This document shows, piece by piece, positions 17,594 through 52,680 of a DNA stretch of 64,000 nucleotides. This stretch comes from Nitrosopumilus sp. Its GTDB lineage: Archaea; Thermoproteota; Nitrososphaeria; Nitrososphaerales; Nitrosopumilaceae. Within the stretch, counting starts at the first letter, position 1; each line of letters starts with the position of its first letter. The stretch is taken from NCBI GenBank assembly GCA_965223425.1, contig OZ245003.1, positions 2,016,001 to 2,080,000 on the forward strand, read 5' to 3'. Under the pieces are notes generated by a model that worked only from the letters and a program-made list of their open reading frames with translations, searched no databases and had not been told where the DNA came from. The position numbers were made by a program, and so were the translations under genes.

Positions 17594-17761
17594 TAATCTG
17601 GATGAAGATTCTGGGGTTTATGTACATTTGGGTTTATTGGTTCTGCGAAGTTATCGGGAGTTATATGTCAATTCCCAAAATGTACAAGCCTCCAAACCGC
17701 AAGATATTCGCTGAAGGCGATAAAGCCAATATCACAGAAATATGCGCCGAACTCTGACCTA

Positions 17762-18907
17762 ATGGATATGGCGGCTACATTCACAAAGATGGCCAATCAT
17801 TGCATCAAGATAGGGTTGAAAGAAGACACTCACAATATGAAGAGGCTGTCCATGTTATGTTATCACGAATTGCGTAACTATGACATTTTATCGTCATACA
17901 AGATATGTGCAATATCAAGAGCTGCAGGCATATTATCAAACAGAAAACAATCAGTCAAACGAGGTGTCAGAATAAGGGACCCAATAGTCAAAAATCCCTT
18001 TATGACAAACTGTTACGGCATAAAACACAACGGTGCACTACTAACAATCCCATACAAGAAGCATAACCCAATCAACATTTTACTCAACGATCACGCCCAA
18101 AAAATCCTGTCTGATCCCGCCCTGACGGTGCGCTCGTTTTCACTGACTGCCCTCAACATCAGTCTTTGTGTTTCAAAAAAAGTACAAGAGATAGAGTGCA
18201 CCAAGAAAGTTGGAATAGACAGAAACCTAAGAAATGTGACGTGTGGGAGCGAGGAAGGGGTGACAGTCTACAAGACAAACAAACTGTTATCCATAAAGGA
18301 GAACACAATACACGCCAGGGCAGGCTTCCACAGAAATGACCGCAGGAAGAAAAATCAGTTCTGCAAGGAAAAACAGAGAAGACTGACTGACAGAGCAAGG
18401 CAGTACATCCACAGAATATCAAAGGATATTGTGGATAATGCCGTCAAAGAAAAGGCTGCAATCGTTCTAGAAAACCTGAAAGGAATTAGAAAACTCTACA
18501 AAAAAGGAAATGGTCAGGGCAACAAGTACAGGCGCAGATTGAACGGGTGGCAATTCTACGAGCTGCAACGCCAAATAGAATACAAAGCCCGATGGGTCGG
18601 GCTCCCGCCAGTCGAATATGTAGACCCAAGAAACACGAGCACGCAGTGTCCGCAATGCGGAAAGAGACTCCAAGAGGACATGCAACAGCATCGTAAACTG
18701 TCGTGTAATAATTGCGGTTTGTTTATGGACAGGGATATTGTCGCTGCCATGAACAACATATCACGCAAGCTGCCCCCCAGGTTTAGGGGCAGTAGAGATG
18801 ACATATGTGAAGCGCAGTCCGGCACTTTTGAGCCGGCGATGACGGAATCCGGCACACCATTGGCAATCCGAATAGTCGATATGTCAAAGTCGAGTTATAG
18901 GGGTTAA
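17762..18907 (+). CDS. tnpB: RNA-guided endonuclease TnpB
   Basis: RuvC-I GIDRN, RuvC-II VLENL, CPQC/CNNC zinc finger, RuvC-III DRD; frame also open upstream (possible CTG start at 17711). Confidence 0.92.
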   Translation: MDMAATFTKMANHCIKIGLKEDTHNMKRLSMLCYHELRNYDILSSYKICAISRAAGILSNRKQSVKRGVRIRDPIVKNPFMTNCYGIKHNGALLTIPYKKHNPINILLNDHAQKILSDPALTVRSFSLTALNISLCVSKKVQEIECTKKVGIDRNLRNVTCGSEEGVTVYKTNKLLSIKENTIHARAGFHRNDRRKKNQFCKEKQRRLTDRARQYIHRISKDIVDNAVKEKAAIVLENLKGIRKLYKKGNGQGNKYRRRLNGWQFYELQRQIEYKARWVGLPPVEYVDPRNTSTQCPQCGKRLQEDMQQHRKLSCNNCGLFMDRDIVAAMNNISRKLPPRFRGSRDDICEAQSGTFEPAMTESGTPLAIRIVDMSKSSYRG

Positions 18908-18929
18908 CTCCCGATAACTTCACAGAACC
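18765..18929 (+). ncRNA. Putative omega-RNA overlapping the tnpB 3' end
   Basis: GC-rich hairpins (CTGCCCC/GGGGCAG, CCGGC/GCCGG) after RuvC-III in the usual omega-RNA position; boundaries inferred. Confidence 0.5.
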
Positions 18930-18991
18930 GGTTTATTACCACGAACAAAACTTGATCAAGTTTTATATGCACAGATAACATAAGAGTTGTA

Positions 18992-19366
18992 ATGGATGAC
19001 TTTGAGAAGGAATTCCCAGAATTTGATTGGAAAAACACGCCAGCATACAAACATCCCGGAGGCAAAGACTGTCCATGTCCAAAACACGAATACATCAGGG
19101 AACAGATCAATTTTACAAAACAAGTAAACGAAAAAGGAAAAGAGCCAAGCAAAGTTACGCTAAGGTTTTGTCCTGATCACTACAGGGTTTACATGGAAGA
19201 GGTGATCCCTGCAATGCCATTAAAGTATAAAATTCTCACAAAGATTGCTCTAAAACTCGGGGCAATTCAAGTTGAACAACTAAAACACATGGAATCAGAA
19301 TTGTGTTTTTACTGCAAGTTTGGATCCGGCGGTTATGACAAAAAGACTGAACTTCCACCAATGTAG
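18992..19366 (+). CDS. Cys-containing hypothetical protein
   Basis: CPCPKH, CPDH, CFYC. Confidence 0.75.
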   Translation: MDDFEKEFPEFDWKNTPAYKHPGGKDCPCPKHEYIREQINFTKQVNEKGKEPSKVTLRFCPDHYRVYMEEVIPAMPLKYKILTKIALKLGAIQVEQLKHMESELCFYCKFGSGGYDKKTELPPM

Positions 19367-19367
19367 A

Positions 19368-19598
19368 TTATTCAGGGCTTAGCAAAATTTTTGGTTTGTT
19401 TGGGGTATCATGATGACATCTCTTGCCACATAACGGACATCTCTTTCTATCAAGAAATATGCATTGACATATGTGAGAATCAAGATATGATTTGGCAGGT
19501 TGGTTTGGCTCACCTGTTCCATTGCAGAAGGGACATTGGGAACCAAGTAATTCTATGGCCCCATTTCCCTTACATACCGCACATTTGTCATCAGCCAA
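19368..19598 (-). CDS. Small Cys-rich protein with DnaJ-like CxxCxGxG repeats
   Basis: CAVCKGNG, CPFCNGTG, CPLCGKRCHH. Confidence 0.7.
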   Translation of the reverse strand: MADDKCAVCKGNGAIELLGSQCPFCNGTGEPNQPAKSYLDSHICQCIFLDRKRCPLCGKRCHHDTPNKPKILLSPE

Positions 19599-19711
19599 TA
19601 CTGTTTTTCCTGAGAGCCAGAATTAAATACATTTGTTAAAAGAATTTTAAGAAAATACAATTTTGTGTTAAATCCAGTTAAGCTTATACTTGAATCAGCT
19701 TCAAAATCATT

Positions 19712-22270: not shown

Positions 22271-22339
22271 CTGTTCTTCATCTTTTTTAATTTCTATTTA
22301 ACCCTTGATAGAAAAAATGAGACCCTATTGTAACCACAT

Positions 22340-22369
22340 GTGGCCAGTAGAAAAAGGCATTCAGATAGT
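22340..22369 (+). pseudogene. 5' fragment of RelE-like gene continued at 31578
   Basis: GTG-ASRKRHSD-S joins in frame to STLFKNIQE... when 22370-31577 and one AGT are removed. Confidence 0.5.
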
Positions 22370-22544
22370 AGACTTTATGCATAATTGAATCATAAAAATT
22401 TTTCCGAAAGATTTAGATCCATTTTGATCGCCGCAACAGGTAATGGAATCTTCAGAACAGACTATACGCAGGCTGCAAAGGGAGCTCAAACAAAAGGACA
22501 CAGCAATCAGGCAAAAGGACACAGCAATCAGGCAAAAGGACACA

Positions 22545-23686
22545 TAGTAAGTACATAAAAAACCTGAACCATTTTGACAATTATTTTTGGCCAAAAGATC
22601 CAAGACAGGCCATACCGCACACACTGCATGTACAAACAAAAAAAGAGACAGGTTGCAAGGGGGGCAAAATTTCTGCCAAACACCAGCGTTGCAGACCTCA
22701 AAAGGGCATACAAAAAAGAGACCGATCCCAGAAGGCGCGACAGGCTGCTTGCGTACATGCAGCGCAAGGACGGCGTGCCGCTAGACAGGATTGGAAGGAT
22801 GCTGGGAAGGCCCAAGTCCACCATATCTGCATGGCTCAACCGCGCACAGGACGAGGGAATACGCGCAAGGTTCGAGCGCAGCGGCAGGGGACGAAAGCAC
22901 CTGATAGGCGGGCCGCAGGCAAGACAGCTTGCAGCAGACCTGGATGCGGGGCCAGAATCATGCGGCTTTGAGAGCAGCCTGTGGGATTCCAACCTGGTAA
23001 GGCTGCACATCAAGAGAAAGTTCGGCGTGCAGTACAGCAAGGCAGGCGCGCTGCAGCTGGTCAGGGAGATGGGCTTTTCGTGGAGCAAGGCGCGTCCAAA
23101 AAACCCAAGATCAGCCTCAAAAAGAAAGCAAAAAGAGTTTCAGGAGCGGGCAAAAAAACTCGTTGCAGAAAAGTCGGCGCAGGGATACGCCGTACTGGCC
23201 GGCGATGCATCCTCGATTCAAAAGGCATCAAACAGGCCCGGCTACGGGTGGAGAAGGCGCGGCAAGCGCGCCACATCCCCCTCTGTTTTGTCACGCGAAA
23301 GAAGATACATCTTTGGAGCCTTGGCGGCAAACGCATTTTACTTTATGTTTTATGAAAAGTCAAACAGCGACAGCTTTTGCAACTTTTTGGAACGGGTTCA
23401 CAAAAGATTCGGCAAGGTGCTGCTGTTTGTAGACAATGCGTCATATCACAAATCCAAAAAGGTAAAGGAGTTTCTGGAAAGATACAACGGCGAGATAGTT
23501 CTGGAGTACCTGCTGCCGTACACGCCGGAGCTTAATCCCATTGAGATGCAGTGGAGGGTGATAAAACGGGTACTGTCTGCAAAAGTGTTTGGCACGCTAG
23601 ATGAGATGGAGCAGTCAGTACGCAAGCTGTTTGCCAGAAAGGAGATCCTGCCTGTGAAAATGTTCAATTATTTAATGTGCTAACTA
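22545..23686 (+). mobile_element. IS630-family element nested in ISL2-like copy 1
   Basis: Imperfect TIRs TAGTAAGTACATAAAA / TAGTTAGCACATTAAA; flanked by CA on both sides. Confidence 0.9.
22574..23683 (+). CDS. IS630 transposase
   Basis: HTH region, GDAS, VDNASYH, LLPYTPELNPIEMQW motifs; open frame. Confidence 0.93.
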   Translation: MTIIFGQKIQDRPYRTHCMYKQKKRQVARGAKFLPNTSVADLKRAYKKETDPRRRDRLLAYMQRKDGVPLDRIGRMLGRPKSTISAWLNRAQDEGIRARFERSGRGRKHLIGGPQARQLAADLDAGPESCGFESSLWDSNLVRLHIKRKFGVQYSKAGALQLVREMGFSWSKARPKNPRSASKRKQKEFQERAKKLVAEKSAQGYAVLAGDASSIQKASNRPGYGWRRRGKRATSPSVLSRERRYIFGALAANAFYFMFYEKSNSDSFCNFLERVHKRFGKVLLFVDNASYHKSKKVKEFLERYNGEIVLEYLLPYTPELNPIEMQWRVIKRVLSAKVFGTLDEMEQSVRKLFARKEILPVKMFNYLMC

Positions 23687-25039
23687 CAGCAATCAAGCAG
23701 AACAACAGAGCAATCAAGCAGAACAACAGAGCAATCAAGCAGAACAACAGAGCAATCAAGCAAAAGGACGCAGCAATCAGCAGGCGCGAGAAGACGATTG
23801 GCCTGCTGCACGAGCAGCAGCTGCTGCGCGAGGACAGCCTGTGGGCCGTTACAGATGCAGGCCGCCCTGATACGGACACGTCGCTGCTGCACATCAGGGA
23901 GGTGATCCACGGCATACTGCACAACAGCGCAAAGCTTGCGGGAATTACCTCGTATGACCTTGACCAGTTTGACTACATCTACAATGACTTTGTGGTAGAG
24001 TCAAAGAGGCACAACAAAGACGCGCCGCTCTTTTCAGAGGACGAAACACCGGATCCCGGAAACCGCTGCCTGCTTGACCGCAGGTCCGTCCTGCTGCTTG
24101 CGCTGTTCCGCAAGCGCTCAAACGTGACGCAGGATGCCCTGGGAGTGCTGTTTGATGTGGATCAGTCCACCGTGTGCAGGTACCTCAAGTTCGCAGATTC
24201 CGTGCTGGCAGGGATCCTGCCTACTGCAGACAGGATGACCCGTCTGGTAAAAAAGGCCGAGACATCAGAGCAGCTAGAGCAGCTAATGCCGGACAGAACC
24301 ATCATAATTGACGGCACCGAGGTGGTGCCAAGGCAGCGTCCGCAGGACAAGGATAAAAGAAAAAACACGTACTCTGACAAAAAGAAGCGCTTTACGATTA
24401 ACACCACCATAACAACAAACAGGGCAGGCCTGATACTTGCAGCAGGCAGGTCCTTTGAGGGCGGGACGCACGACCTTACCATGATAAGAGAGGATCCGAC
24501 AGACTGGCAGGTGGTCTAAATCCATGTACAAAAAAGACACTCCGGAAAAGGACAGGATACGGGTGCTTGTAGACAAGGGGTACCGGGGATGCCAATCACT
24601 ACACGGGAATGGCACTTGAGATGCCGGAAAAAAAGAGGCCGCGGACGGAGCTGACGCAGCAGCAAAAGGACTCCAACAAAAGGATCAGCGCCAAGAGGGT
24701 AAAGGTGGAGCACGCCATCGGAAGAATAAAGCAGTGGGCGAGGATGACAGACCCGTACGACGGCACGGTAGAGGGGTTTCGCGAGGAGCTGGCTGTGTGT
24801 ACCGGCCTTGCGAACTTTCAACTGCTGTGGGATGCAAAGAAAAAGCGGCCGTCACTTGGTTATTGACGGCACAGCACAGGGTGCATGAGGCACTGCAAGA
24901 GTGCGCACGGATTTCTAATTTCTGCGAATTTACAATGATCTTTTGCATCAAAATTAAATAATTTCCTGGACTGGCTTTGTGTGTCTTGGTAATGTATGCT
25001 GCAGAAAAAATTTGACGGGTCAATTATGCATAAAGTCTA

Positions 25040-26014: not shown

Positions 26015-26053
26015 GCATTAATCTTTTTTTATTACTAAATTTGGTGAATTGAC

Positions 26054-26647: not shown

Positions 26648-26719
26648 ATTTCAAATCTTATCAAGAAAAAACAAAACAATTATTATTAAAAGTTCTAGAA
26701 AGTTCTGGCGGTTCTGGTA

Positions 26720-27240
26720 ACCATATGTGAATACAGAGAAAAGGAAATCAGACAGCATAAGAGATGAACCTAATTCCAGGATTCGCAGTCTGTCACCTCC
26801 AAAGAAACAGATTAGGGGCAAATTAAGCAACAGCATGTATGTGGGCATTGACCTGCACAAGAAACCTCTTCAAGTAGCAATAATGGACAATGACGGAAAG
26901 GTATTACAAAACAGCAATTGACAACACTCACCAGACAATCAAGAAACATTTTGCAAGCATACCGCCTTATGCCAGCATAGCCATGAATCCTCATCTGTCT
27001 GGTTGATACATGTCGATTTCTGACAGATACGCTTGGATACAAAAACCCTGTCAAACCCATACCTGACAAAGGCAATAGCTGCATCCAAGAAGAAGACAGA
27101 CAAGGTTGATGCCAAGATCCTTACAGCTCTGCTGAGGATGGATCCGTGGAGCGAGCTCCTGCCAGATCACAGTACTGTTGCCAAGTTCATGCAGAAGATT
27201 CCAACTGCATGGCTTTGACATGGATGCAATGCATATGAAC
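26720..27240 (+). pseudogene. Degraded IS110/IS1111 element fused to an IS5-like fragment
   Basis: Left end ACCATATGTGA as at 30250; MYVGIDLHKK, KKTDKVDA fragments; then LPDHSTVAKF. Confidence 0.8.
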
Positions 27241-28609: not shown

Positions 28610-30256
28610 ATAATTCAATAAGACAAAAATAGTTCAATGTCTAACTTTTTTATTTTATAATATGATAGAATCTGATGATTTGAAAATATTTGATAATCAG
28701 GCCCCCTTGATAATAGACTTTATGCATAATTGAATCATAAAAAATTTTTCCGAAAGATTTAGATCCATTTTGATCGCCGCAACAGGTAATGGAATCTTCA
28801 GAACAGACTATACGCAGGCTGCAAAGGGAGCTCAAACAAAAGGACACAGCAATCAAGCAAAAGGACACAGCAATCAAGCAAAAGGACACAGCAATCAAGC
28901 AAAAGGACACAGCAATCAAGCAGAACAACAGAGCAATCAAGCAGAACAACAGAGCAATCAAGCAGAACAACAGAGCAATCAAGCAAAAGGACGCAGCAAT
29001 CAGCAGGCGCGAGAAGACGATTGGCCTGCTGCGCGAGCAGCTGCTGCTGCGCGAGGACAGCCTGTGGGCCGTTACAGATGCAGGCCGCTCTGATACGGAC
29101 ACGTCGCTGCTGCACAGCAGGGAGGTGATCCACGGCATACTGCACAACAGCGCAAAGCTTGCGGGAATTACCTCGTATGACCTTGACCAGTTTGACTACA
29201 TCTGCAACGACTTTGTGGTAGAGTCAAAGAGGCACAACAAAGACGCGCCGCTCTTTTCAGAGGACGAAACACCGGATCCCGGAAACCGCTGCCTGCCTGG
29301 CCGCAGGTCCGTCCTGCTGCTTGCGCTGTTCCGCAGGCGCTCAAACGTGACGCAGGATGCCCTGGGTGTGCTGTTTGATGTTGACCAGTCCACCGTGTGC
29401 AGGTACCTCAAGTTTGCAGATTCCGTGCTGGCAAAGATTCTGCCTACTGCAGACAGGATGGCCCGTCTGGTAAAAAGGGCCGAGACATCAGGGCAGCTAG
29501 AGCAGCTAATGCCGGACAGAACCATCATAATTGACGGCACCGAGGCGGTGCCAAGGCAGCGTCCGCAGGACAAGGATAAAAGAAAAAACACGTACTCTGG
29601 CAAAAAGAAGCGCTTTACGATTAACACCACCATAACAACAAACAGGGCAGGCCTGATACTTGCAGCAGGCAGGTCCTTTGAGGGCGGGACGCACGACCTT
29701 ACCATGATAAGAGAGGATCCGATAGACTGGCAGGTGGTCTAAATCCATGTACAAAAAGGACACGCCCGAAAAGGACAGGATACGGGTACTTGCAGACAAG
29801 GGGTACCAGGGATGCCAATCACTACACGGGAATAGCACTTGAGATGCCGGAAAAAAAGAGGCCGCGGACGGAGCTGACGCAGCAGCAAAAGGACTCGAAC
29901 AAAAGGATCAGCGCCAAGAGGGTAAAGGCGGGGCACGCCATCGGAAGAATAAAGCAGTGGGCGAGGATGACAGACCCGTATGACGGCACGGTAGAGGAGT
30001 TTCACGAGGAGCTGGCTGTGTGTACCGGCCTTGCAAACTTTCAACTGCTGTGGGATGCAAAGAAAAAGCGGCCGTCACTTGGTTATTGACGGCACAGCAC
30101 AGGGTGCATGAGGCACTGCAAGAGTGCGCACGGATTTCTAATTTCTGCGAATTTACAATGATCTTTTGCATCAAAATTAAATAATTTCCTGGACTGGCTT
30201 TGTGTGTCTTGGTAGTGTATGCTGCAGAAAAAATTTGACGGGTCAATTAACCATAT

Positions 30257-31345
30257 GTGAAGGCTCGGAGAAAAGGAATTTTAGATGACACTGGCATCAA
30301 GTCCTTTAAAAAGAAAAAAACAAAGAAACAGATTACCCATGGTTCTGACAAGATCATGTATGTTGGACTAGACGTACACAAGGAGACGATTCAAGTTGCA
30401 GTACTGGATGGCGGCGGGACACTGCAGTCCAACATGAAGATAAAGAACAATCATGCGGAGATCAGGAAAACATTTGCCATGATCCCAAGGGACTCAAAAT
30501 ACGTGCTGGAATCATCATCTGTCTGGTACGGCCTATACCGGTTTCTCACAGATACGCTGGGATTAAATGTAATCGTATCCAATCCGTTTAGCACCAAGGT
30601 AATTGCAACGTCGCTCAAAAAAACAGACAAGGTGGACGCGCAGGCGCTGGCAAATCTATTGAGAGGGGGCTACATTGCACAGTGCCACGTGCCCGACAAT
30701 GACATAGTAGAGCTAAGACACCTTGCAAGACACAGAAACAAACTGGTCAAGACAAGAACAGTCATGAAGAATTCCATACATGGGATACTCTTGCAAAACG
30801 GAATCAAGACAAAATCCGGCGGATTCGGATCCGGCCACGTAAGGGAATTGAGAAAACTGAGGAACTATCGCATAGATTCGTTCCTTGATTCCATAGCGTT
30901 TCTAGACGGGCAGATCTACAAAATGGATGTAAAAACCCGCCGGATAGTCAAAAGGGATCAGAACATCAGTCTGCTGACCACCGTTCCTGGAATAGGGTAT
31001 TATTCTGCGCTTGCAATATATTCGGAGATTGGCAATATCGAAAGATTTTCAGACTCACACAAACTGTGTGCATACGCGGGCATTGTTCCGTCCGTGAGAA
31101 ACTCTGCTGAGACGGTACACCACGGCAGGATAACAAAGAGGGGAAGCCGTATGCTGCGATGGATAGCAGTGGAGGCAATCCAGACCCATACAAGACACGC
31201 GCCTGACAGCGACATTACAAGATTCTACAACCGTCTTGCAAAAAAGAGAGGAAGATCAAAGGCAAAGGTTGCAGCGGCATCAAAGCTGATACGTGTAATA
31301 TATTGGATGCTAAAGGAGAAAAAAGAGTATGTTGCCCAAAAATAA
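30257..31345 (+). CDS. IS110-family DEDD recombinase
   Basis: GLDVH, VLES, KTDKVDA, VPGIG, AYAGIVPSVRNS motifs. Confidence 0.95.
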   Translation: MKARRKGILDDTGIKSFKKKKTKKQITHGSDKIMYVGLDVHKETIQVAVLDGGGTLQSNMKIKNNHAEIRKTFAMIPRDSKYVLESSSVWYGLYRFLTDTLGLNVIVSNPFSTKVIATSLKKTDKVDAQALANLLRGGYIAQCHVPDNDIVELRHLARHRNKLVKTRTVMKNSIHGILLQNGIKTKSGGFGSGHVRELRKLRNYRIDSFLDSIAFLDGQIYKMDVKTRRIVKRDQNISLLTTVPGIGYYSALAIYSEIGNIERFSDSHKLCAYAGIVPSVRNSAETVHHGRITKRGSRMLRWIAVEAIQTHTRHAPDSDITRFYNRLAKKRGRSKAKVAAASKLIRVIYWMLKEKKEYVAQK

Positions 31346-31349
31346 TTTA

Positions 31350-31485
31350 TCACGGTTAGAGTCTGTCTGCGTTTTATGCGTTGAGGTTACACCTCGGGCA
31401 ATTAACTGCGGTTCAATCTAACAAATGGATGAAGAATGGCACTGGGAGTAAGATCCCGAATGGATACTTGTCCGCTCATCTTTTG
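31350..31485 (+). ncRNA. Putative bridge/seek RNA
   Basis: Two stem-capped loops with words matching target (TTTATGCGT, CAATTA) and donor (ATGGATA). Confidence 0.7.
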
Positions 31486-31577
31486 GAATTTGGATCAACC
31501 CTAACGTGAGCCATTCAACACTGTGACAGTTTGCAAGGAATGTTTATAAAGAATTCACATGGATATGCATAAAGTCT

Positions 31578-31829
31578 AGTACACTCTTTAAAAATATTCA
31601 GGAAATAATCGACAAGTTAAAAAAAGATATCATGGTAGGCAAACGAATTAAATTCAAAACTATTCCCAAATACTACAAAAAGAGACATGGGATTGACAAT
31701 GCGTTTCATGTATATTTGCCAAAAGGCATGAGACTAGTCTATTCTATTACTATTTACAATGGTGAAAAGACTGCATTTCTAATGGAATTAGCGGATCATC
31801 ATGCTTATGAGAAAAGATTCAATTATTGA
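31578..31829 (+). pseudogene. RelE/ParE-like toxin, 3' part
   Basis: IPKYYKKRHGIDNAFHVYLPKGMRLVYSI...DHHAYEKRFNY; frame open to the IS end. Confidence 0.6.
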
Positions 31830-31888
31830 TACATAAATGTACATACATATAAATATCATTTGTCTGCATAAGCAGTTGGGAATCACGC

Positions 31889-32185
31889 ATGGCTAAATCA
31901 ATGACTGTTTTGGATTATATTTTGGAGAAAAGTAAAAAATACAATCCTACACTGAGAAGTTTTATTCAGGTCGAAAAATTAGTATTTGAGACTAAAGAAT
32001 TTGAGACCAAACGGGAACTATACAATCTATTGCCCAAAGGAATGCAGTATCCGTCATTTAACTTTATTTTAGATGTTTTGGAAAAACAAAACAAAATCGT
32101 ATTTGATAAAGACGGTTCTTTTTTCTGGATTGGCAATGCAAGCCAAAAGCTAGAAAAGAGTATTAAAAACGCAAAGGAATACTAG
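31889..32185 (+). CDS. Winged-helix protein, putative antitoxin
   Basis: PTL..VEK..KRELYNLLPKGMQY..ILDVLE..NKI. Confidence 0.6.
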   Translation: MAKSMTVLDYILEKSKKYNPTLRSFIQVEKLVFETKEFETKRELYNLLPKGMQYPSFNFILDVLEKQNKIVFDKDGSFFWIGNASQKLEKSIKNAKEY

Positions 32186-34176: not shown

Positions 34177-34177
34177 A

Positions 34178-45271: not shown

Positions 45272-45274
45272 TTC

Positions 45275-46652
45275 CAGTCACCCAGAACAGCATATGCAGT
45301 TAAACTCATGTAAGCCTTGGGTTCTCCCATACGAAATCACCCCTTATCCTACTGCGGACCATTCTCAGTGTGCTTTGCTGAATCAGGATGTTTCTGATTT
45401 GTCTTGCATCTTCTTATACTTTCTTTGCGTCAACTCATGATTCTGTGTGCGGTATTCCTCCATGTTTGTTAGCATGTGCCAGATTATCTCAAGCATCATC
45501 TGCCTTGCAGCTGCTATTCTTGCCTTTTGTTTTCTTCTTCTCTTTGCGATTCTTGAATAAAATGATTCCATCCTTGGATCAAATCGTATCGTGGTGTTTG
45601 CAGCCTCCACCTGCATTGCGCAGCCATGCAGAACCACGTTTTGTTATTCCGCCGCCTCCTTTTTGCGTCTCTCCGCTGTCCCTGTGCGATGGTGCAAGTC
45701 CCGCATATGAGACGAGTTTCTCTGCTGTTGCAAATCTGTTAATGTCAACTATCTCGGATATTATTGTCAGTGCCGTGACATAGCTTATTCCAGGCATTGT
45801 CATGACTAGTCTTGCCCTTTCATCCTCGTTGCTAATTGCAGCAATCTTTGTCTCAAATGTGTCAATCTGTTTTTGATTCATCTCAATGTTTTCAAGATAT
45901 GCGTCCATTGCCATCCTGTCAACTTCTGTCAGACTGATTTCATGCAGCCATCTGATTCCCTTCTGTGAGAATGTCTTTATTGTCGGTTGGGTGTAGTCGT
46001 ATTTTGCAAGTATTGCATAAATCATGTTTTTGTGTTTTGAGACACTGTGTACGCGATTCAGTCTTGTTCTTACCAGACTGCGCAGGTCCCGATAGTATTT
46101 TTCTGGTACAAATGACTCGTACACCATGTCAGATCTTAGCAGGTCTGCCAACACGTCTGAATCGAGCTTGTCGTTTTTGAGTTTTGCCTGTGCTATTATC
46201 TTGGTCTTTGCAGGGTGTGCAAGAACAGTATCAATGCCGTTATCCTCCAGTGTGTCATGCAGTCTAATCCAGTAGTTGGCAGTTGATTCGCACACTGCTT
46301 GCATGTCTTTGCCGTATGTCTTTTTGACGTGTCTGATAAAACCCGTTATTCCACGTGTGGTGTTCTCAAAGCTTGACTGTTCCAGCTTTTTTCTGGTATC
46401 TTTTTTTACTGTTGCAACGCACCTGTTTTTGTGAACGTCAATTCCTATGCTGATCATATTATCACCTCCTTTCTGATCAAATTGCCTGATTCTGCGGAAT
46501 GCTCCCATTCACCATCATCTGTGTGGTATTTTGTTTTCCGCTCACTTTGAGTTAGTCTGTGAAACGCCCTTGTACATGGCAGTAACCCTTCAACTCTCAG
46601 GCCCAACAGTAACGATACATCACAGGATATAGAAAAGATTTCGTATAACGTC
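45275..46652 (-). mobile_element. IS110-family element type B, transposase 46457-45383 with one frameshift near 45605
   Basis: IGIDVH, CEST, KNDKLDS, YAGLAPSHRDSG; TC at both junctions (45273-74, 46651-52). Confidence 0.88.
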
Positions 46653-46776
46653 TGTCAAGTTATCGGGCGTTTAGTCTAAATCTTTTACCTGTAAAGGGTC
46701 GGGACATGGGTTCTGTAACAAATTGGGGACATGAATACGGATCTTCTCTGAATTGAAAATTTTCTCTTTCTCCACG

Positions 46777-46893
46777 TTAACTGTCGGGTGTTTTTGAGGC
46801 TATGATTCCTATTTTGATCAGTTTTGCCTTTAGTTCAGTTGTTGTCATTTTATTTCCCTTCATGGAATTACATGATTGGCATAATAGTTGTTT
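46777..46893 (-). pseudogene. C-terminal fragment of HNH nuclease truncated by IS66
   Basis: KQLLCQSCNSMKGNK. Confidence 0.6.
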
Positions 46894-46894
46894 G

Positions 46895-47367
46895 GTACGT
46901 GTTCACCTGATTTAGCTCAGTTTTACATATATTTTACAATCTCGGCCACATAGCCAATATTCTTGTTCTTCCAAGTGGTGACACACGAGAATAGATTCCC
47001 CATCCATTCCATGGTATCCACAGATCTCAGCCCGCCACGGATCTTTCTGTGCACTACAATCTCGCGCAATCCGCGCTCGGCGGCATTGTTGGTAGGCGGG
47101 ATGCCGGGGTCTGATACGAACCGGAACATGTCAGGCGCCGCCCTGCTCAGCTTTTTCATGAAACGCTCCAATATGGGATTATCCGAATATTTCATGATCA
47201 GCTGCCTTATCCGCCGCAACAGTCTGCAGCAGAGATCCGTTCTGTTTCCGGCCGCACCGCATCCGTCCCTGTACATTCTTTTTAGCACATCCCGTACGCA
47301 CCTGCATTGCGGGTCGTCATATTTGACGCACAGGTCACGTGCCTCGCGCAGTATGTGCGACCAGCAC
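46895..47367 (-). mobile_element. IS66-family remnant (3' end of tnpC)
   Basis: CWSHILRE and PPTNNAAERGLR..RKI motifs; end GTACGTGTTCACC. Confidence 0.8.
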
Positions 47368-48774
47368 TAGCTTGAACACATGATAACCACCTCGTCGTAG
47401 ATGTAGTGATGAATCGACCCCTGTATGCATATGGGCCTTGCGCCCTTGAGCTTGAATGGGGCAGTCCGAGCTGCTGTGTGACTGGGCCTTGCGCCCTGAT
47501 AGGTGTATGCAGCTTCCGATCCGTCAAAGATCCGAAAGGAGGTGATAGAAAGGATGAGCAAAGGAACAATCAGCATAGGAATAGACATTGGAAAGAGAAA
47601 ATGTGACGTATGCGTCATGGACTGGAAGGGAAAGGTTTTGCATACTGGCCAGTATCAAAACACCGTCTCAGATGCAGACAGATTCGCAGAACAGACGGCA
47701 CTCAGGTATTCTGCCAGAAGATGTCAGGCAGCATGCGAGACGACGGGCAACATGTGGAACATCACATACGGCGCCTTTGAGAGACATGGAATCGACATAA
47801 AGCTTGCCAACACCTACAAGATGGCAATAATTGCAAAGACGGGAAAGAAGACAGACAAGATTGACGCACAAAAGATAGCAAGCGTATTGAGGATGGATTC
47901 AATACCAGAGTGTTATGTGCCGTCAGCTGACACAAGAGGAGTCCGGGCCATGGTCAGACAGAGGATCAGGACCGTACAGGACAGGACACGCGTGATAAAC
48001 CGCGTCCACAGCCTGCTTGACAGATACGATGTGAAAATCGATGCCTCTGAGATGTATGCCATAAAGGCCGTAGAACAGATGGAGTCTGCAAGCCTGGGAT
48101 CCGTACATGACGAAATAGTACCGAGTCAGTGTGCCCGGCAGATAAGGAGCCTTACCGAGGAGATAAGACACATGGATGAACACCTGGAAAAGGAGGCATC
48201 GCTAAACGAGGATGCAAAACTTCTTGCCAGCATGACTGGCATGGGAATCTACTCTGCACTGCTGCTTGCCGTCAAGATAGCCGACATTGTCAGATTCGAG
48301 ACCCCAAAGAATCTCGTCTCATGGGCAGGCCTGTGTCCGGCGATACGCCAGTCAGGCGACAAAATCTACATGGGCAGAATCAAAAAGCTTGACACCAACA
48401 GTCTGGTCAACTGGGTCATGTGCGAGGCTGCAAACACGGCGGTAATTCATGATACTAGAATGAAGGCAGTTTACGAGTCTTCCAAGAGAAGACATGCAGG
48501 CAAGCATGCACTTGCCATAGTGACTGTCGCCAACAAGATGATAACCATAGCGTGGCACATACTCAAGACCAGGACACCATACGAGTCCCGAAACGAGGGA
48601 CTGTACAAACGCAAGCTTGCCAAGATGGAAAAGGCACGCCAGAGGTGATTGGTATGTGTCATCCCACCAAATTATCTCTCCAGCGTTAGCTATAAATCTT
48701 GTACCGTACAAGTAGGCACGGATCGGAAATACAACTGGGATGCGTTGCCGCAACACGTCCGGTGGTTAACATAG
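47368..48774 (+). mobile_element. IS110-family element type C
   Basis: TAG at both junctions (47368-70, 48772-74); long structured left end. Confidence 0.8.
47554..48648 (+). CDS. IS110-family DEDD recombinase
   Basis: GIDIG, CETT, KTDKIDA, WAGLCPAIRQSG. Confidence 0.92.
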   Translation: MSKGTISIGIDIGKRKCDVCVMDWKGKVLHTGQYQNTVSDADRFAEQTALRYSARRCQAACETTGNMWNITYGAFERHGIDIKLANTYKMAIIAKTGKKTDKIDAQKIASVLRMDSIPECYVPSADTRGVRAMVRQRIRTVQDRTRVINRVHSLLDRYDVKIDASEMYAIKAVEQMESASLGSVHDEIVPSQCARQIRSLTEEIRHMDEHLEKEASLNEDAKLLASMTGMGIYSALLLAVKIADIVRFETPKNLVSWAGLCPAIRQSGDKIYMGRIKKLDTNSLVNWVMCEAANTAVIHDTRMKAVYESSKRRHAGKHALAIVTVANKMITIAWHILKTRTPYESRNEGLYKRKLAKMEKARQR

Positions 48775-49989
48775 GTGTTGCATAACACGCCTAAAATCTA
48801 CCACGCAGTTTAAACTGACCAACAAACACACATGTTTCTGACCGAAAAAGCTTTAGATCATGACAGCATGCTCAAAGTGTTGACCGACAATGCAAAGTAC
48901 GTCCGGCGGGGTGCAGAGCTGGCAGTACAGTACAACCCTGACTGGAACTGCGAGGTAAGGCAGGCCAACTGCGGCAAGGAGGAGGGGGCACCGTTCCAGT
49001 ATGCAGACACCATGATCATATGACAGCCGCACTGAGAACCGCCCTCGGCGTTCCATTCAGGCAGCTGTCCGGGATGGCAGATAAGATGCTTGAGGGACAC
49101 GACTCGCCGCACCATACCACGCTGTGCAGAAGAATGGAGAAATTTGACATTAGCATTCACGGCAACACCATACACGTTCATGACGCATCCCGGCACGTAA
49201 CCCTGATGGCCGATGCCACCGGACTCAGACAGTGGAACCGCGGAGAATGGATACGCGACAAGTGGAAGGCGGTGGTGTTGCGCAAGGGATATGTCAAGAT
49301 GCACCTGCTGGCAGATGCGGACACCGGCATGATACTTGCTGCAGTAGTCACAGACGACAGAACCGGCGACTCGCCGGTACCGCAGGATCTGCTGGATCAG
49401 GCAGTGGCAGAGCCGTTTGCCAAGGCCGGGAAGGACGATGCGAGAAAGAGGCCAAACATGCTTGCAGACGGAGTCTCTCCGCTTGCCGGTTCGGCAGGCG
49501 GCAAGGAGGAGGAAGAAGAAGAAGAAGTGCCAAGTGCCAGCCTGCTTGCAGACGGCGCATATGCATCCAAGAAAAACATGAATGCGTGCAGGAAGAAGGG
49601 CATCAAGCCGCTTGTGCCACTCAAACCATGCTTTGCTGAGAGCGGCAGGGGCGATGACGGCAAGGAGTGGAACCTGGCCGTGAAAGAGCAGCTTGGGGGC
49701 AGCGCAGACATGCACGTCAAGGGACTGACAGTGGAACAGAAAAAGGAGAACAGAAGATACTGGAAGTCTACTGTAGGGTACGACAAAAGGTGGAGAATAG
49801 AGGTAATCATCTCCGCATTCAAGCGAATGTTCGGAGAGCATCTGTTCTCACGCAAGTGGGAGAGCATGGTAAGAGAGGTAAGGATGAGGATTGCCATGTA
49901 CAACCGGTGGGTGGCAGCAACAATGTAGGGGAGCAGGTGCATGGATCCTGGAATGAACGGGATGTGGTCAGGCCGAGTTATGCAACACA
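48774..49989 (+). mobile_element. IS5-family element, transposase split 48832-49023 / 49020-49928
   Basis: TIRs GTGTTGCATAAC / GTTATGCAACAC; DATG, KMHL, DSP, ADGAY, Y.KRWRIE; CTA flanks after removing IS110 type C. Confidence 0.85.
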
Positions 49990-50004
49990 CTACCGGCTAA
50001 CGGA

Positions 50005-51351
50005 TTAGTCTGTCAGTGACGGATCAGACACCCTTCCCATGAACAGGATGGTGCCGCTCTCGTCGTCCTGTATGATAAAGATGAATGGGTGGTCTGCGGT
50101 AAATTTTGGTGGTGGTGGAGGCATCGACTCCATTCCTATTACTATTGTAGTCACGGCTGCAGCCTCTGTCCCCTCTTCGTTTACGTTCACATATGCGTCC
50201 TGAACCGCCTTTGAGACAAACAGGTTTCTTCCAGATACGTCTGCAATGCCTGAGAGGTCTGCTATTTTTTTCTTAAAAGCATCTGTCATTCCAAGGCTTG
50301 TCAAGCTGGGTTCTAGATCATAATGTGTCTTCATCTCAAACTTTGGAATAGACACTATCACCTCAGATTCTGTCATACCTTGCTGCCATTTCTGCAAGAG
50401 TTTGGTCGAAAGCATCTCCTGTAATCGTTTTATGCCGTCCCTCTCAGAGGGCAGTACCACCAGCATGGAGAGTCTGTCGCCCTTGTAGGGCATCTTTAAC
50501 ACCTGCACGCCATCGCCTTCGGCATAGTTGAATGTTCCACGCACGTTCATAAAGTCAGTCCTGATGCTGTTACTGTTTGTCCAAAAATCCGACTCGCGTG
50601 TATCCTCTGCCGGGAACTGCGTCACCCAAGTTCCCTTAAAGTATATGGCATTTGCCAGAACCATCGCAGTAAGGTAACTTACAGCATCAGGTGCTAACAC
50701 CTTCTTTATCTTGCCGTGCGTTTTCTCAGACGCCCATGCGTTTATCTTCCCTACACCATCGCCCAAAAAATTGACGCGTTCGGCTTTGGCAAGGTACGTC
50801 TTGCGTATTATGTCCATGTATGAGTCATACGGAGAAAACCAGTCGGCAATCCAGACGGAGTTTGCAAGCTCCAGTGTGGCGTGCGGATCATCACGGTTCA
50901 AGGACGGCATAATGTGGGCAGTGGCGTTGTGACGCAGGGCCACGTCTGAGTCAAACCCGAAGACCTGCTGAATCTGCTGTGCCGTGTTTTCACGCGCCCC
51001 CTCGTACAGCATGGAGAATGCCACATACATGCTAAGAGGCGAGAAGAAGATGTTGTCATCATCATTGCCTGATACCTGTCCGTAAAAGTCCATGGCAAAG
51101 TCGTTGTTTGCCATGGCTATGCTTTGCGGGATCTCTGAGGGCTCCCCCTGAAGGCTGAAAGATATGTTATTTGGGATGTCAATGAGTGTTGAAACAAGAG
51201 GGGCCATGTATGTCCCAAAGTCAGACACGTAGACCTGTACAATATGGAGAGAAGGAATGATAATCTTAACTAAGAATTCATTATCAAGCATCATCACAAA
51301 AAAGGCCACTATGGCTACAAATATCAGGATTGTAACATATCTTTTCTTCAT
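50005..51351 (-). CDS. Serpin (serine protease inhibitor) with N-terminal membrane anchor
   Basis: NIFFSPLS, NAIYFKGTW, IPKF, hinge EEGTEAAAVT, FTADHPFIF. Confidence 0.95.
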   Translation of the reverse strand: MKKRYVTILIFVAIVAFFVMMLDNEFLVKIIIPSLHIVQVYVSDFGTYMAPLVSTLIDIPNNISFSLQGEPSEIPQSIAMANNDFAMDFYGQVSGNDDDNIFFSPLSMYVAFSMLYEGARENTAQQIQQVFGFDSDVALRHNATAHIMPSLNRDDPHATLELANSVWIADWFSPYDSYMDIIRKTYLAKAERVNFLGDGVGKINAWASEKTHGKIKKVLAPDAVSYLTAMVLANAIYFKGTWVTQFPAEDTRESDFWTNSNSIRTDFMNVRGTFNYAEGDGVQVLKMPYKGDRLSMLVVLPSERDGIKRLQEMLSTKLLQKWQQGMTESEVIVSIPKFEMKTHYDLEPSLTSLGMTDAFKKKIADLSGIADVSGRNLFVSKAVQDAYVNVNEEGTEAAAVTTIVIGMESMPPPPPKFTADHPFIFIIQDDESGTILFMGRVSDPSLTD

Positions 51352-51364
51352 GAGACTTTATGCG

Positions 51365-52680
51365 TATCCATGTGAATTCTTTATAAACATTCCTTGCAAA
51401 CTGTCACAGTGTTGAATGGCTCACGCTGGGGTTGATCCAAATTCCAAAAGATGAGCGGACAAGTATCCATTCGGGATCTTACTCCCAGTGCCATTCTTCA
51501 TCCATTTGTTAGATTGAACCGCAGTTAATTGCCCGAGGTGTAACCTCAACGCATAAAACGCAGACAGACTCTAACCGTAATAAATTATTTTTGGGCAACA
51601 TACTCTTTTTTCTCCTTTAGCATCCAATATATTACACGTATCAGCTTTGATGCCGCTGCAACCTTTGCCTTTGATCTTCCTCTCTTTTTTGCAAGACGGT
51701 TGCAGAATCTTGTAATGTCGCTGTCAGGCGCGTGTCTTGTATGGGTCTGGATTGCCTCCACTGCTATCCATCGCAGCATACGGCTTCCCCTCTTTGTTAT
51801 CCTGCCGTGGTGTACCGTCTCAGCAGAGTTTCTCACGGACGGAACAATGCCCGCGTATGCACACAGTTTGTGCGAGTCTGAAAATCTTTTGACATTGCCA
51901 ATCTCCGAATATATTGCAAGCGCAGAATAATACCCTATTCCAGGAACGGTGGTCAGCAGACTGATGTTCTGATCCCTTTTGACTATCCGGCGGGTTTTTA
52001 CATCCATTTTGTAGATCTGCCCGTCTAGAAACGCTATGGAATCAAGGAACGAATCTATGCGATAGTTCCTCAGTTTTCTCAATTCCCTTACGTGGCCGGA
52101 TCCGAATCCGCCGGATTTTGTCTTGATTCCGTTTTGCAAGAGTATCCCATGTATGGAATTCTTCATGACTGTTCTTGTCTTGACCAGTTTGTTTCTGTGT
52201 CTTGCAAGGTGTCTTAGCTCTACTATGTCATTGTCGGGCACGTGGCACTGTGCAATGTAGCCCCCTCTCAATAGATTTGCCAGCGCCTGCGCGTCCACCT
52301 TGTCTGTTTTTTTGAGCGACGTTGCAATTACCTTGGTGCTAAACGGATTGGATACGATTACATTTAATCCCAGCGTATCTGTGAGAAACCGGTATAGGCC
52401 GTACCAGACAGATGATGATTCCAGCACGTATTTTGAGTCCCTTGGGATCATGGCAAATGTTTTCCTGATCTCCGCATGATTGTTCTTTATCTTCATGTTG
52501 GACTGCAGTGTCCCGCCGCCATCCAGTACTGCAACTTGAATCGTCTCCTTGTGCACGTCTAGTCCAACATACATGATCTTGTCAGAACCACGGGTAATCT
52601 GTTTCTTTGTTTTTTTCTTTTTAAAGGACTTGATGCCAGTGTCATCTAAAATTCCTTTTCTCCGAGCCTTCACATATGGT
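51365..52680 (-). mobile_element. IS110 (IS1111-type) type A copy 2
   Basis: Near-identical inverted copy of 30250-31565; TA core. Confidence 0.92.
51585..52673 (-). CDS. IS110-family DEDD recombinase
   Basis: Differs from 30257-31345 at only a few residues. Confidence 0.95.
   Translation of the reverse strand: MKARRKGILDDTGIKSFKKKKTKKQITRGSDKIMYVGLDVHKETIQVAVLDGGGTLQSNMKIKNNHAEIRKTFAMIPRDSKYVLESSSVWYGLYRFLTDTLGLNVIVSNPFSTKVIATSLKKTDKVDAQALANLLRGGYIAQCHVPDNDIVELRHLARHRNKLVKTRTVMKNSIHGILLQNGIKTKSGGFGSGHVRELRKLRNYRIDSFLDSIAFLDGQIYKMDVKTRRIVKRDQNISLLTTVPGIGYYSALAIYSEIGNVKRFSDSHKLCAYAGIVPSVRNSAETVHHGRITKRGSRMLRWIAVEAIQTHTRHAPDSDITRFCNRLAKKRGRSKAKVAAASKLIRVIYWMLKEKKEYVAQK

What the first reader, a model, noticed from the sequence alone, without database searches (positions are those of the whole stretch)
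17639..52680. Window-wide pattern: RNA-guided elements all aim at DDE transposon ends
All four full-length IS110 insertions (three types) hit TIRs of three different DDE families (ISL2-like twice, IS6-like, IS5); the remnant at 26720 follows a TIR-like GGTTCTGG; and the TnpB guide is predicted to be TIR-derived. Inference: a layer of programmable transposon-versus-transposon parasitism that uses proliferating IS ends as safe harbours and may dampen an IS bloom in a host-associated archaeon.
Basis: inference. Interest (0 to 1): 0.75.

Follow-up and report, generated by a model that had tools for sequence, protein, structure and literature searches.

The report
RNA-guided IS110 elements target transposon ends
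In this transposon-crowded archaeal genome every lineage of IS110-type jumping gene sits at one fixed spot inside the terminal repeats of other jumping genes, apparently steered there by its own small guide RNA; the behaviour is already known from bacteria but is unusually systematic here.

Summary
The core observation holds. All four full-length IS110-family elements in the window split a terminal inverted repeat (TIR) of another insertion sequence at a fixed base. IS110_A does so twice, 12 nt from the tip of a DDE_Tnp_4 IS. IS110_B sits 3-5 nt from the tip of an IS6-type TIR. IS110_C sits 5-7 nt from the tip of an IS5.

Genome-wide the pattern repeats. A fourth lineage (IS110_D, outside the window) sits at nt 2-3 of the TIR of an IS66-type MITE. 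A second genome of the genus has its own IS1111-type element 9-11 nt from the tip of an abundant MITE.

The non-coding ends carry short blocks that match the split TIR and the element's own ends. Three related elements share one scaffold whose guide blocks change with the target.

Two sub-claims fail or stay open. The TnpB guide is not TIR-derived on current evidence: 13 of 14 right-end flanks are unique DNA. The remnant's GGTTCTGG flank is sequence-specific but not shown to be a TIR.

TIR and MITE targeting by this family is already published (IS4321/IS5075, IS1111/QMITE2). These are new members of a known kind. "Dampening an IS bloom" remains speculation.

The parts
17639..18929 (+). TnpB-only element (1291 bp). 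It has 25-bp IS6-type TIRs (17639-17663 and 18905-18929) and an 8-bp target duplication GGTTTATT (17631-17638 and 18930-18937). It is a target family of IS110_B elsewhere in the genome, not an element that aims at TIRs.
22370..25038 (+). ISA#1 (DDE_Tnp_4 IS) with both TIRs intact. It is interrupted internally by an IS630-like element (22545-23687). It serves as an unoccupied IS110_A target.
26720..27232 (+). Degenerate IS1111-type remnant (PF01548 match with 2 TGA stops). Its LE is ACCATATGTGAA and its left flank is GGCGGTTCTGG[TA].
28715..31577 (+). ISA#2. Its right TIR is split by IS110_A#1. The last 12 nt of the TIR (TGCATAAAGTCT) lie at 31566-31577.
30250..31565 (+). IS110_A#1 (IS1111 type, 1316 bp, core TA). 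The predicted seekRNA lies in the 3' non-coding end: R block TTTATGC at 31373-31379, L block CAATTA at 31399-31404, donor block ATGGATA at 31460-31466.
45320..45322 (+). Tip (GGT) of the IS6-type TIR that is split by IS110_B.
45323..46650 (-). IS110_B (IS110 type, 1328 bp, core GA on its own strand; ORF truncated at 309 aa). L block TTCACAGA at 46556-46563 and donor block ATGGGAG at 46502-46508, both on the minus strand.
46651..46676 (+). Inner part of the split IS6-type TIR (TCTGTCAAGTTATCGGGCGTTTAGTC). A second IS6-type end fragment follows at 46709-46757.
46893..47367 (-). 3' fragment of an IS66-family transposase gene into which the IS5 had inserted. The homologous intact copy is at C1:1798603-1799985.
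47368..47374 (+). Outer tip of the IS5 left end (TAGCT plus core TG), left outside IS110_C.
47375..48775 (+). IS110_C (IS110 type, 1401 bp, core TG). It is the only copy in which both transposase domains lie in one open frame (381 aa). The 5' non-coding end carries a variable block TATGCA (47424-47429), L block AGCTTG (47449-47454) and donor block ATAGGTG (47499-47505).
48776..49992 (+). Remainder of the IS5 (DDE_Tnp_1), beginning with core TG and then TTGCATAACACGCC.
51353..51364 (+). Outer 12 nt of the left TIR of ISA#3 (AGACTTTATGCG).
51365..52680 (-). IS110_A#2. It lies in the left TIR of ISA#3, at the same site and the same orientation relative to the TIR as copy #1.
52681..54173 (+). Rest of ISA#3.

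Best explanation
Each IS110/IS1111-family lineage in this genome is a site-specific mobile element. Its DEDD recombinase is steered by a bridge/seek RNA encoded in its own non-coding end. In every lineage that RNA is programmed for a 10-15-nt site inside the terminal inverted repeat of another IS or MITE family:
- IS110_A: the DDE_Tnp_4 IS.
- IS110_B: IS6-type ends, including a TnpB-only element.
- IS110_C: the IS5 and its 80-bp MITE.
- IS110_D: an IS66-type MITE.

Insertion exchanges strands at a 2-nt core. This leaves a few TIR bases on one side of the insert and the rest on the other.

Why TIRs are favoured is inferred, not shown. They are the most numerous, most conserved, continually renewed and host-neutral short sequences in an IS-rich genome: two per element, and shared with MITEs. 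Loss of mobility of the hit copy would then be a side effect.
For: SHOWN BY SEQUENCE.
- Split TIRs occur at identical positions across copies that have different outer flanks: A in 4 of 4 RE junctions, B in 5 of 5 LE junctions, C in 6 of 11 LE junctions, and D in 5 of 8 RE junctions plus 1 near-cognate site.
- Intact sites exist elsewhere: 31 exact for A, 28-47 for B, 23 for C, 8 for D.
- One occupied/empty pair has the same outer flank (C1:276299 versus C1:814386).
- IS110_A lies in a right TIR once and in left TIRs twice.
- TSDs flank the MITE-plus-IS110_D unit (TCATCTAA) and the solo MITE (AATAAATT).

GUIDES (in silico).
- A: TTTATGC (complement of GCATAAA), a hairpin, then CAATTA (left target plus core), then ATGGATA (left donor plus core).
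- B: TTCACAGA and ATGGGAG.
- C: AGCTTG and ATAGGTG, each just after a repeated hairpin GGGCCTTGCGCCC.
- A, D and the G051 element share one scaffold, GCG-[R]-GAGG..CCTCG-NN-[L]-A(C/T)TGC. Its R and L blocks change with the target: TTTATGC/CAATTA, TGAACTCG/TTGTA, TATGAATCA/TTGCTA.
- The order, top-strand complement 5' of bottom-strand complement, is the one reported for IS1111 seekRNAs (PMC11187229, passages read).
- IS110_C copies carry L-block variants AGCTTG, AGTTTG and ATCTTG. These equal the three left-flank classes seen: IS5, MITE and rve-type IS. Variable columns are 5 of 12 in the guide blocks against 20 of 153 elsewhere (Fisher p = 0.02).

CHANCE. Repeats make up 19% of the genome in 483 intervals. 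The terminal 12-25 nt of those intervals come to roughly 0.4-0.9% of the genome, or 2-5% of the repeated DNA. Yet 4 of 4 lineages sit there.

INDEPENDENT GENOME. In G051, 12 of 13 examined copies are followed by (T)GAT(T/A)CATAC, the MITE tip. 27 of 30 fetched MITE loci are empty and 2 are occupied.
Against: - No RNA or activity data: no run on record as RNA was listed, and Rfam has no matching family.
- Single-block matches are weak against shuffles: p = 0.29 (A target), 0.15 (C target), 0.0125 (B target), 0.04-0.09 (donor blocks). No left-target block is visible for D by that test.
- For the IS110-type elements B and C, my tentative right-guide blocks lie 5' of the left-guide block. The papers describe the opposite order for ISEc21 and IS621, so those blocks are unsure.
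- Only 4 of 8 IS110_C copies sit in a site that matches their own L block exactly. I explain this by RNA acting in trans, which is untested.
- Not all insertions are in TIRs. Two IS110_C copies lie about 90 nt inside an rve-type IS, within its transposase coding end. One sits in unidentified DNA. Two older D-like right ends and both A-like remnants have flanks that I could not assign to a TIR.
- IS110_B appears to have a broken gene.
Confidence: 0.8

Rival explanations
1. TIR targeting is an evolved transposon-against-transposon (or host-beneficial) system that disables proliferating DDE elements and dampens the IS bloom.
For: - Every hit splits a TIR, which a DDE transposase needs, so hit copies are probably immobile (inference).
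- Roughly 10-20% of cognate ends are occupied.
- IS110 copies are more alike (about 98-100% identity) than the copies of their target families (ISA 87-97%, IS5 88-96%). They therefore arrived after those families had spread.
Against: - The most numerous families (IS630-like and ISX) are not targeted by any lineage.
- Most cognate ends remain intact.
- DDE elements insert into IS110 genes too, so damage runs both ways.
- The genome is still 19% repeats.
- Other IS110/IS1111 members target REP, attC and MITE sites where no 'dampening' is invoked (PMC11208160, PMC11187229, PMC5896051; passages read).
Confidence: 0.12
2. Co-mobilisation or reverse order. The IS110 is a passenger carried when the DDE element or MITE transposes, or the DDE elements inserted next to pre-existing IS110 ends. 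Either would give apparent TIR association without IS110 targeting.
For: - MITE-plus-IS110_D units are flanked by 8-bp duplications.
- Only 1 solo MITE of that exact type exists, against 4 occupied MITEs (5 occupied arms).
- The two left-TIR IS110_A copies share identical ISA sequence next to the insert.
Against: - The TIR is split, with tip bases on the far side of the IS110 in all four lineages.
- IS110_A occurs in both right and left TIRs.
- In G051, 27 of 30 fetched MITE loci are empty and only 2 are occupied, which fits MITEs spreading first.
- An empty paralogous site exists for one IS110_C copy.
- With only 3-5 nt of tip left outside the insert (B, C, D), the DDE transposase would lack its binding site.
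Confidence: 0.05
3. Chance nesting in a genome that is one-fifth repeats.
For: Nested insertions of many kinds are common here.
Against: The base position and orientation are identical in independent copies of each lineage. The guide-like blocks are complementary to those sites. TIR tips make up under 1% of the genome.
Confidence: 0.02

Closest known systems
IS4321 / IS5075 (IS1111 group), which target the 38-bp TIRs of Tn21-family transposons. Source: Partridge & Hall 2003, seen only as a title in the reference lists of PMC11187229 and PMC11208160; the IS4321 target logo is mentioned in a PMC11187229 passage.
   Same: An IS1111-type DEDD element inserts at one fixed position and orientation inside the terminal inverted repeat of another transposon. 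It has sub-terminal inverted repeats and a long 3' non-coding end.
   Different: - The hosts here are an archaeal genome and its genus, and the targets are IS and MITE ends (DDE_Tnp_4 IS, IS66-type MITE), not Tn3-family transposons.
- Four co-resident lineages, two of them IS110-type with 5' non-coding RNAs, all do it.
IS1111 of Coxiella burnetii inserting into the MITE QMITE2. 20 of 21 copies do so (PMC5896051, passages read).
   Same: An IS1111-type element uses an abundant MITE as its target. Most MITE copies stay empty, and 10-20 nt of the MITE are left on one side of the insert.
   Different: There the site is described as a REP palindrome within the MITE. Here the sites are the TIRs themselves, 2-12 nt from the tip, and the full-length parent IS ends are hit too (ISA, IS5, TnpB element).
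IS621 bridge RNA and ISEc11/ISPa11/ISKpn4 seekRNAs (PMC11208160 and PMC11187229, passages read).
   Same: - A DEDD recombinase with PF01548 and PF02371.
- A non-coding end carrying short blocks complementary to the bottom strand left of the core and the top strand right of it, plus blocks matching the element's own ends.
- A 2-nt core.
- Natural reprogramming between relatives.
   Different: - The guides here are only predicted.
- The targets are TIRs rather than REP elements.
- Guide variants occur among near-identical copies within one genome.
- In IS110_B and IS110_C the tentative right-guide block lies 5' of the left-guide block.

Membership tests
IS110 family (DEDD transposase elements) | Transposase with DEDD_Tnp_IS110 (PF01548) followed by Transposase_20 (PF02371) | tested here: met
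   A, B, C and D all score above the cut-offs. B matches only positions 2-67 of 87 of PF02371 and its ORF stops at 309 aa.
IS110 family (DEDD transposase elements) | No long terminal inverted repeats and no multi-base target duplication; a 2-nt core shared by donor and target | tested here: met
   Comparing junctions with intact sites gives overlaps of 2 nt: TA (A, D), GA (B), TG (C). The G051 element shows only a 1-nt overlap, i.e. a core mismatch.
IS1111 group | Sub-terminal inverted repeats with about 7-nt left and 3-nt right extensions; long right non-coding end holding the RNA | tested here: met
   - A: TAACCAT|ATGTGAA ... TTCACAT|GGA, with 220 nt 3' of the ORF.
- D: TAATCTT|ATGTGCC ... 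GGCACAT|GGA, with 213 nt 3' of the ORF.
Sources. The 7/3 rule is taken from a PMC11187229 passage.
IS110 group | Long left non-coding end upstream of the transposase gene holding the RNA | tested here: met
   B has about 200 nt and C about 178 nt between the left end and the likely start codon.
Bridge RNA / seekRNA-guided recombination | The non-coding RNA carries blocks complementary to both strands of the target and blocks matching the donor ends | tested here: inconclusive
   Blocks are present at homologous scaffold positions and co-vary with the target in A, D and G051. Variants occur among C copies. Single-block shuffle tests are weak.
Bridge RNA / seekRNA-guided recombination | The RNA is expressed and bound by the recombinase; a circular intermediate forms | not testable with these tools
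   No run on record as RNA was listed. Contigs cannot show it.
IS6 family (the target TIR of IS110_B) | TIRs beginning GG, 8-bp target duplication, DDE_Tnp_IS240 transposase | tested here: met
   - 25-bp TIR GGTTCTGTGAAGTTATCGGGAGTTA, with exact 8-bp duplications in 4 copies.
- C1:915422-918405 has such TIRs plus a PF13610 ORF.
- The TnpB-only element itself has no transposase gene.
IS200/IS605 (usual home of TnpB) | No TIRs, no target duplication, sub-terminal hairpins, TnpA Y1 partner | tested here: not met
   The TnpB element has 25-bp TIRs and 8-bp duplications. I did not search for a TnpA partner.

The most novel reading that the evidence does not exclude
Aiming at TIRs is a convergent, evolved hyperparasitic strategy of RNA-guided IS110/IS1111 elements in IS-rich archaea.
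- Co-resident lineages partition the resident IS and MITE families between them.
- One lineage (IS110_C) diversifies its guides in situ to follow three target classes.
- One lineage (IS110_B) cripples the IS6-type elements that carry the RNA-guided nuclease TnpB.
Taken together, these insertions would measurably limit the spread of the hit families.
Probability: 0.2. Interest if true: 0.7.

Novelty: new member of a known kind. Interest (0 to 1): 0.42.

Why it matters
- It gives five natural recombinase, guide and target sets: four in this genome and one in a relative. Their empty and occupied sites are known to the base, which makes them ready material for testing bridge/seekRNA rules outside bacteria.
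- It shows that when a genome fills with insertion sequences, the RNA-guided IS110 elements settle on the terminal repeats of the others. That choice is predictable and testable, and it bears on how transposon communities structure themselves.
- It corrects the idea that the TnpB element takes part in this aiming. The TnpB element is a victim, and an unusual one: TnpB inside IS6-type TIRs.

Tried and rejected
- Rfam, at gathering score over the whole window and at E up to 1 over 17000-54500: only a tRNA and one chance ribozyme hit. There is no family for these RNAs.
- Sequencing runs: no RNA holder was listed. Contigs of four runs were laid on 29900-31900. They break at the repeats. The one joint (30248 to 31547, with 10 other letters between) looks like another ISA end, and the loose ends are flanks of other ISA or IS110_A copies. 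This gave nothing on activity or expression.
- For IS110_D I first took GTTCGCCT, next to the donor block, for a target match. The alignment with A and G051 shows it is conserved scaffold. The real R block lies in the end of the ORF.
- I first placed the IS110_D boundary at TG or at the end of the 65-nt tail. I rejected this after finding the solo MITE with its duplication and from homology with IS110_A.
- I searched for a target fitting the IS110_C variant block TGTACG (A[GT][CT]TTG, 0-2 spacer bases, CGTACA). There were 0 hits.
- Reconstructed empty site for the 26720 remnant: no convincing match (2 weak hits at up to 3 mismatches).
- PMC3718332 (Sulfolobus islandicus) was read for IS110. 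It contains nothing on target sites.
- In searches I saw no paper describing IS110-family insertion into TIRs in archaea. Supplements were not consulted (closed), and target tables in the supplements of PMC11187229 may hold such cases.

Full report
SETTING. The window is G000:C1:2016001-2080000 of a 2.64-Mb, two-contig genome. The genome is very rich in repeats: 509,715 of 2,637,967 bases lie in 483 intervals present in three or more copies. In a sample of 41 genomes of the genus it is the largest. It has 25 PF01548 places, against 0-5 in all the others but one (G051, also 25). I did not test what the organism is or whether it is host-associated.

WHAT IS IN THE WINDOW. Pfam finds four full IS110-family genes and one remnant. 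I defined element ends by comparing copies with each other and with uninterrupted copies of the flanking repeats.

IS110_A.
- It is 1316 bp and occurs at 30250-31565 (+) and 51365-52680 (-).
- Both copies interrupt a ~1.54-kb IS ('ISA': DDE_Tnp_4 plus HTH_Tnp_4) whose ends are AGACTTTATGCATAATTGA.
- Intact ends read ...CAATTATGCATAAAGTCT. The occupied ones read ...CAATTA|IS|..GGATA|TGCATAAAGTCT.
- One copy is in a right TIR. The other window copy and the third genomic copy are in left TIRs, always in the same orientation relative to the TIR.

IS110_C.
- It is 1401 bp, at 47375-48775.
- It interrupts the left end of an IS5 (DDE_Tnp_1). Intact ends read TAGCTTGTTGCATAACACGCC.
- Here TAGCTTG lies left of the insert and TGTTGCATAAC lies right of it, so the core is TG.
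- The IS5 itself had landed in an IS66-family gene.

IS110_B.
- It is 1328 bp, at 45323-46650, on the minus strand.
- It interrupts GGT[TC]TGTCAAGTTATCGGGCG.

THE IS6-TYPE TIR AND THE TnpB ELEMENT.
- The GGTTCTGT... repeat is the 25-bp TIR of the TnpB-only element at 17639-18929. That element has about 14 copies.
- Exact 8-bp target duplications are seen in 4 copies, including the window's GGTTTATT.
- 65 sites in the genome match this TIR with up to 4 mismatches. They include short MITE-like pairs.
- One 2984-bp element with such TIRs (C1:915422-918405) carries a DDE_Tnp_IS240 transposase and a methylase-HNH passenger.
- 'IS6-like' is therefore a fair label.
- Genome-wide, 5 of 5 IS110_B left junctions are in ...GATAA(C/G)TT(C/G)ACA[GA], except one degenerate end that reads ...CTTTACA[GA]. 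Two of these five are in the left TIR of TnpB elements. 5 of 7 right junctions are followed by ACC, the TIR tip.

THE REST OF THE GENOME.
- IS110_A: 4 of 4 right junctions and 3 of 3 left junctions are in the ISA TIR.
- IS110_C, 11 left junctions: 4 carry TAGCTTG (the IS5 tip, each with a different outer flank). 2 carry (T/C)AGTTTG, the tip of an ~80-bp IS5-type MITE with about 17 intact ends. 3 carry CATCTTG. 2 carry something else.
- Two of the CATCTTG copies lie in GCATCT[TG]CGCACAAAGG, in the 3' coding end of an rve-type transposase about 90 nt from that element's end. Three empty copies of that site exist. These two insertions are a real exception to 'TIR only'.
- One MITE-borne copy (C1:276299) has an empty paralogue with the same outer flank (C1:814386).
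- IS110_D is a fourth lineage, absent from the window. Its ends are homologous to those of IS110_A (TAATCTT|ATGTGCC ... GGCACAT|GGA).
- IS110_D sits in G[TA](T/C)GAGTTCACCTAC, which is nt 2-3 of the TIR of a 78-bp MITE. That MITE exists solo at C1:2012427-2012506 with the duplication AATAAATT. Its TIR is that of an IS66-family element (PF03050, 8-bp duplication).
- Of 8 D-type right junctions, 5 are in that MITE, and one MITE is hit in both arms. One is at a near-cognate site 6 nt outside the tip of another IS. Two older relatives lie elsewhere.
- 17 of 18 D-type left ends are preceded by GTA.

A SECOND GENOME.
- G051 (same genus, 2.4 Mb) has 25 PF01548 places. I examined 13 of them.
- 12 of 13 are followed by (T)GAT(T/A)CATAC. 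9 of 13 are preceded by a 70-nt sequence starting GTATGTATCAACC.
- Together these two pieces make an 82-bp MITE with 8-bp duplications.
- Of the 30 MITE loci fetched (42 matches; 40 of 305 candidates scored), 27 are uninterrupted, 2 hold the IS and 1 is otherwise disrupted.
- Insertion is at ...TTTGC|T|TGATTCATAC, 9-11 nt from the tip.
- This is an independent repeat of the pattern. It also shows that the MITEs spread first.

GUIDES.
- Published rule (passages read in PMC11208160 and PMC11187229). One block pairs with the bottom strand left of the core, so it reads like the left target plus core. One block pairs with the top strand right of the core. Further blocks match the element's own ends. 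In IS1111-type RNAs the top-strand complement comes first.
- IS110_A: its 3' non-coding end reads GCG-TTTTATGC-GTTGAGGTTACACCTCG-GG-CAATTA-ACTGCGG, followed by ATGGATA. TTTATGC is complementary to GCATAAA, at positions +2 to +8 right of the core. CAATTA equals CAAT plus TA. ATGGATA equals the right end plus core.
- The G051 element has the same scaffold with TATGAATCA (complement of TGATTCATA) and TTGCTA.
- IS110_D has the same scaffold with TGAACTCG (complement of CGAGTTCA), lying in the last codons of its gene, and TTGTA.
- Three relatives with three targets, whose two blocks change in step with the target, is the best evidence here for RNA guidance.
- IS110_B carries TTCACAGA (left target plus core) and ATGGGAG.
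- IS110_C carries AGCTTG and ATAGGTG, each just after a repeated hairpin.
- Among seven IS110_C copies the L block reads AGCTTG, AGTTTG or ATCTTG. These are the three left-flank classes found in the genome. A second block reads TATGCA or TGTACG. Variable columns are 5 of 12 in these blocks against 20 of 153 elsewhere (p = 0.02).

WEAKNESSES.
- Single blocks are short. Against 2000 shuffles the longest same-sense match gives p = 0.29 (A target), 0.15 (C target), 0.0125 (B target) and 0.04-0.09 (donor blocks). D shows none by that test.
- Only 4 of 8 IS110_C copies sit in a site that matches their own L block exactly.
- The right-guide blocks of B and C are tentative.
- There are no RNA data.

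HOW UNLIKELY IS THE PATTERN. The last 12-25 nt of 483 repeat intervals amount to about 0.4-0.9% of the genome and 2-5% of repeated DNA (my arithmetic). All four lineages have their main target there. A fairer null weights by copy number, because TIRs occur twice per element and are shared with MITEs: 23 intact IS5-type ends, of which 17 are MITE ends, and 65 IS6-type TIR matches against about 14 TnpB elements. That raises the prior perhaps two- to three-fold, which is still far from giving four of four. I infer that conservation of TIRs across subfamilies, their constant renewal and their neutrality for the host make them the best long-term targets.

- (a) TnpB. Under the established model the guide is the DNA just beyond the right end (PMC13565253, passages read). 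Here 13 of 14 such flanks are unique sequence, and one abuts another IS. Nothing supports a TIR-derived guide. The element's TIR is instead a target of IS110_B.
- (b) The remnant at 26720. A second remnant shares the flank GGTTCTGG[TA], so the site was specific. The flank is otherwise unique. Small palindromic elements beginning GGTTCTGG(T/A)A exist (e.g. C1:770705-770751), but I did not link them to the remnant.
- (c) Dampening. Occupancy is about 10-20% of cognate ends. IS110 copies are about 98-100% identical to each other, whereas ISA copies are 87-97% and IS5 copies 88-96% identical, so the IS110s came later. The IS630-like and ISX families are untouched. ISX and IS630-like elements have themselves inserted into IS110_C and IS110_D. 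The idea is not excluded, but nothing speaks for it.

NOVELTY.
- Targeting of transposon TIRs by IS1111-type elements is known for IS4321/IS5075 (title seen in reference lists).
- Targeting of a MITE by IS1111 is known too: 20 of 21 copies in Coxiella (PMC5896051, passages read).
- RNA guidance and natural reprogramming are established (PMC11208160, PMC11187229).
- What is added here:
  - New elements and targets in an archaeal genus.
  - All co-resident lineages of both subgroups do the same thing.
  - Guide variants exist among near-identical copies.
  - An IS110 hits a TnpB-bearing IS6-type element.
- I rate this as new members of a known kind, of moderate interest.

Noticed in passing
window 17639-18929 (and about 13 other copies, e.g. 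C1:134372-135666): TnpB (381 aa, Cas12f1-like_TNB domain) is the only gene of a 1291-bp element that has 25-bp IS6-type TIRs and 8-bp target duplications. It lacks the hairpin ends of IS200/IS605. A 2026 review lists TnpB with ISL2, IS630 and IS1031 DDE transposases inside TIRs (PMC13565253 passage) but does not list IS6. The element is probably moved in trans by an IS6-family transposase.
   Followed up: partly
L074 = G000:C1:915350-918450 (element at C1:915422-918405): An IS6-type element (GGTTCTGT TIRs, PF13610 transposase of 345 aa) carries a 446-aa passenger that fuses an N6/N4 DNA methylase to an HNH endonuclease.
   Followed up: partly
C1:850532-853072 and C1:2133301-2135839: Two IS110_C copies carry an ISX (IS630-like, DDE_3) at the same internal position. 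They sit in two rve-type IS copies that are only ~78% alike. This suggests that the 2.5-kb IS110_C::ISX composite was moved in trans by the IS110 machinery. ISX flanks in IS110_C and IS110_D both read GTCCTGTCCTGT.
   Followed up: no
C1:1500511-1503328: Two IS110_D copies lie tail to tail, one in each arm of a single 78-bp IS66-type MITE, with 54 nt of MITE between them.
   Followed up: partly
C1:367318 onward: A truncated IS110_C consists of its left end up to just past the L block (AGTTTGAATG), fused directly to the MITE sequence CATAACACG. It is a deletion with its break next to the guide-encoding DNA.
   Followed up: no
C1:1325308-1326598 and C1:1451399-1452689: Two TnpB-element copies have swapped flanking duplications (TAGAAACT and TTATGTTA). 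This is the signature of an inversion by recombination between the two copies.
   Followed up: no
window 13704-14444: A long, perfect 18-nt tandem array. It reads as (PEISKN)n in one frame and lies next to a 431-aa ORF on the other strand.
   Followed up: no
G051 (L036-L065): An 82-bp MITE (GTATGTATCAACC...TGATTCATAC, 8-bp duplications) is very abundant. The search had 305 first-look candidates, scored 40 and returned 42 matches.
   Followed up: partly
window 22574-24519, 28789-29742, 52742-53593: All three ISA copies in the window have transposase frames that stop after about 60 of the 158 positions of the DDE_Tnp_4 domain. Either a frameshift is needed for expression or the family is largely dead.
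   Followed up: no
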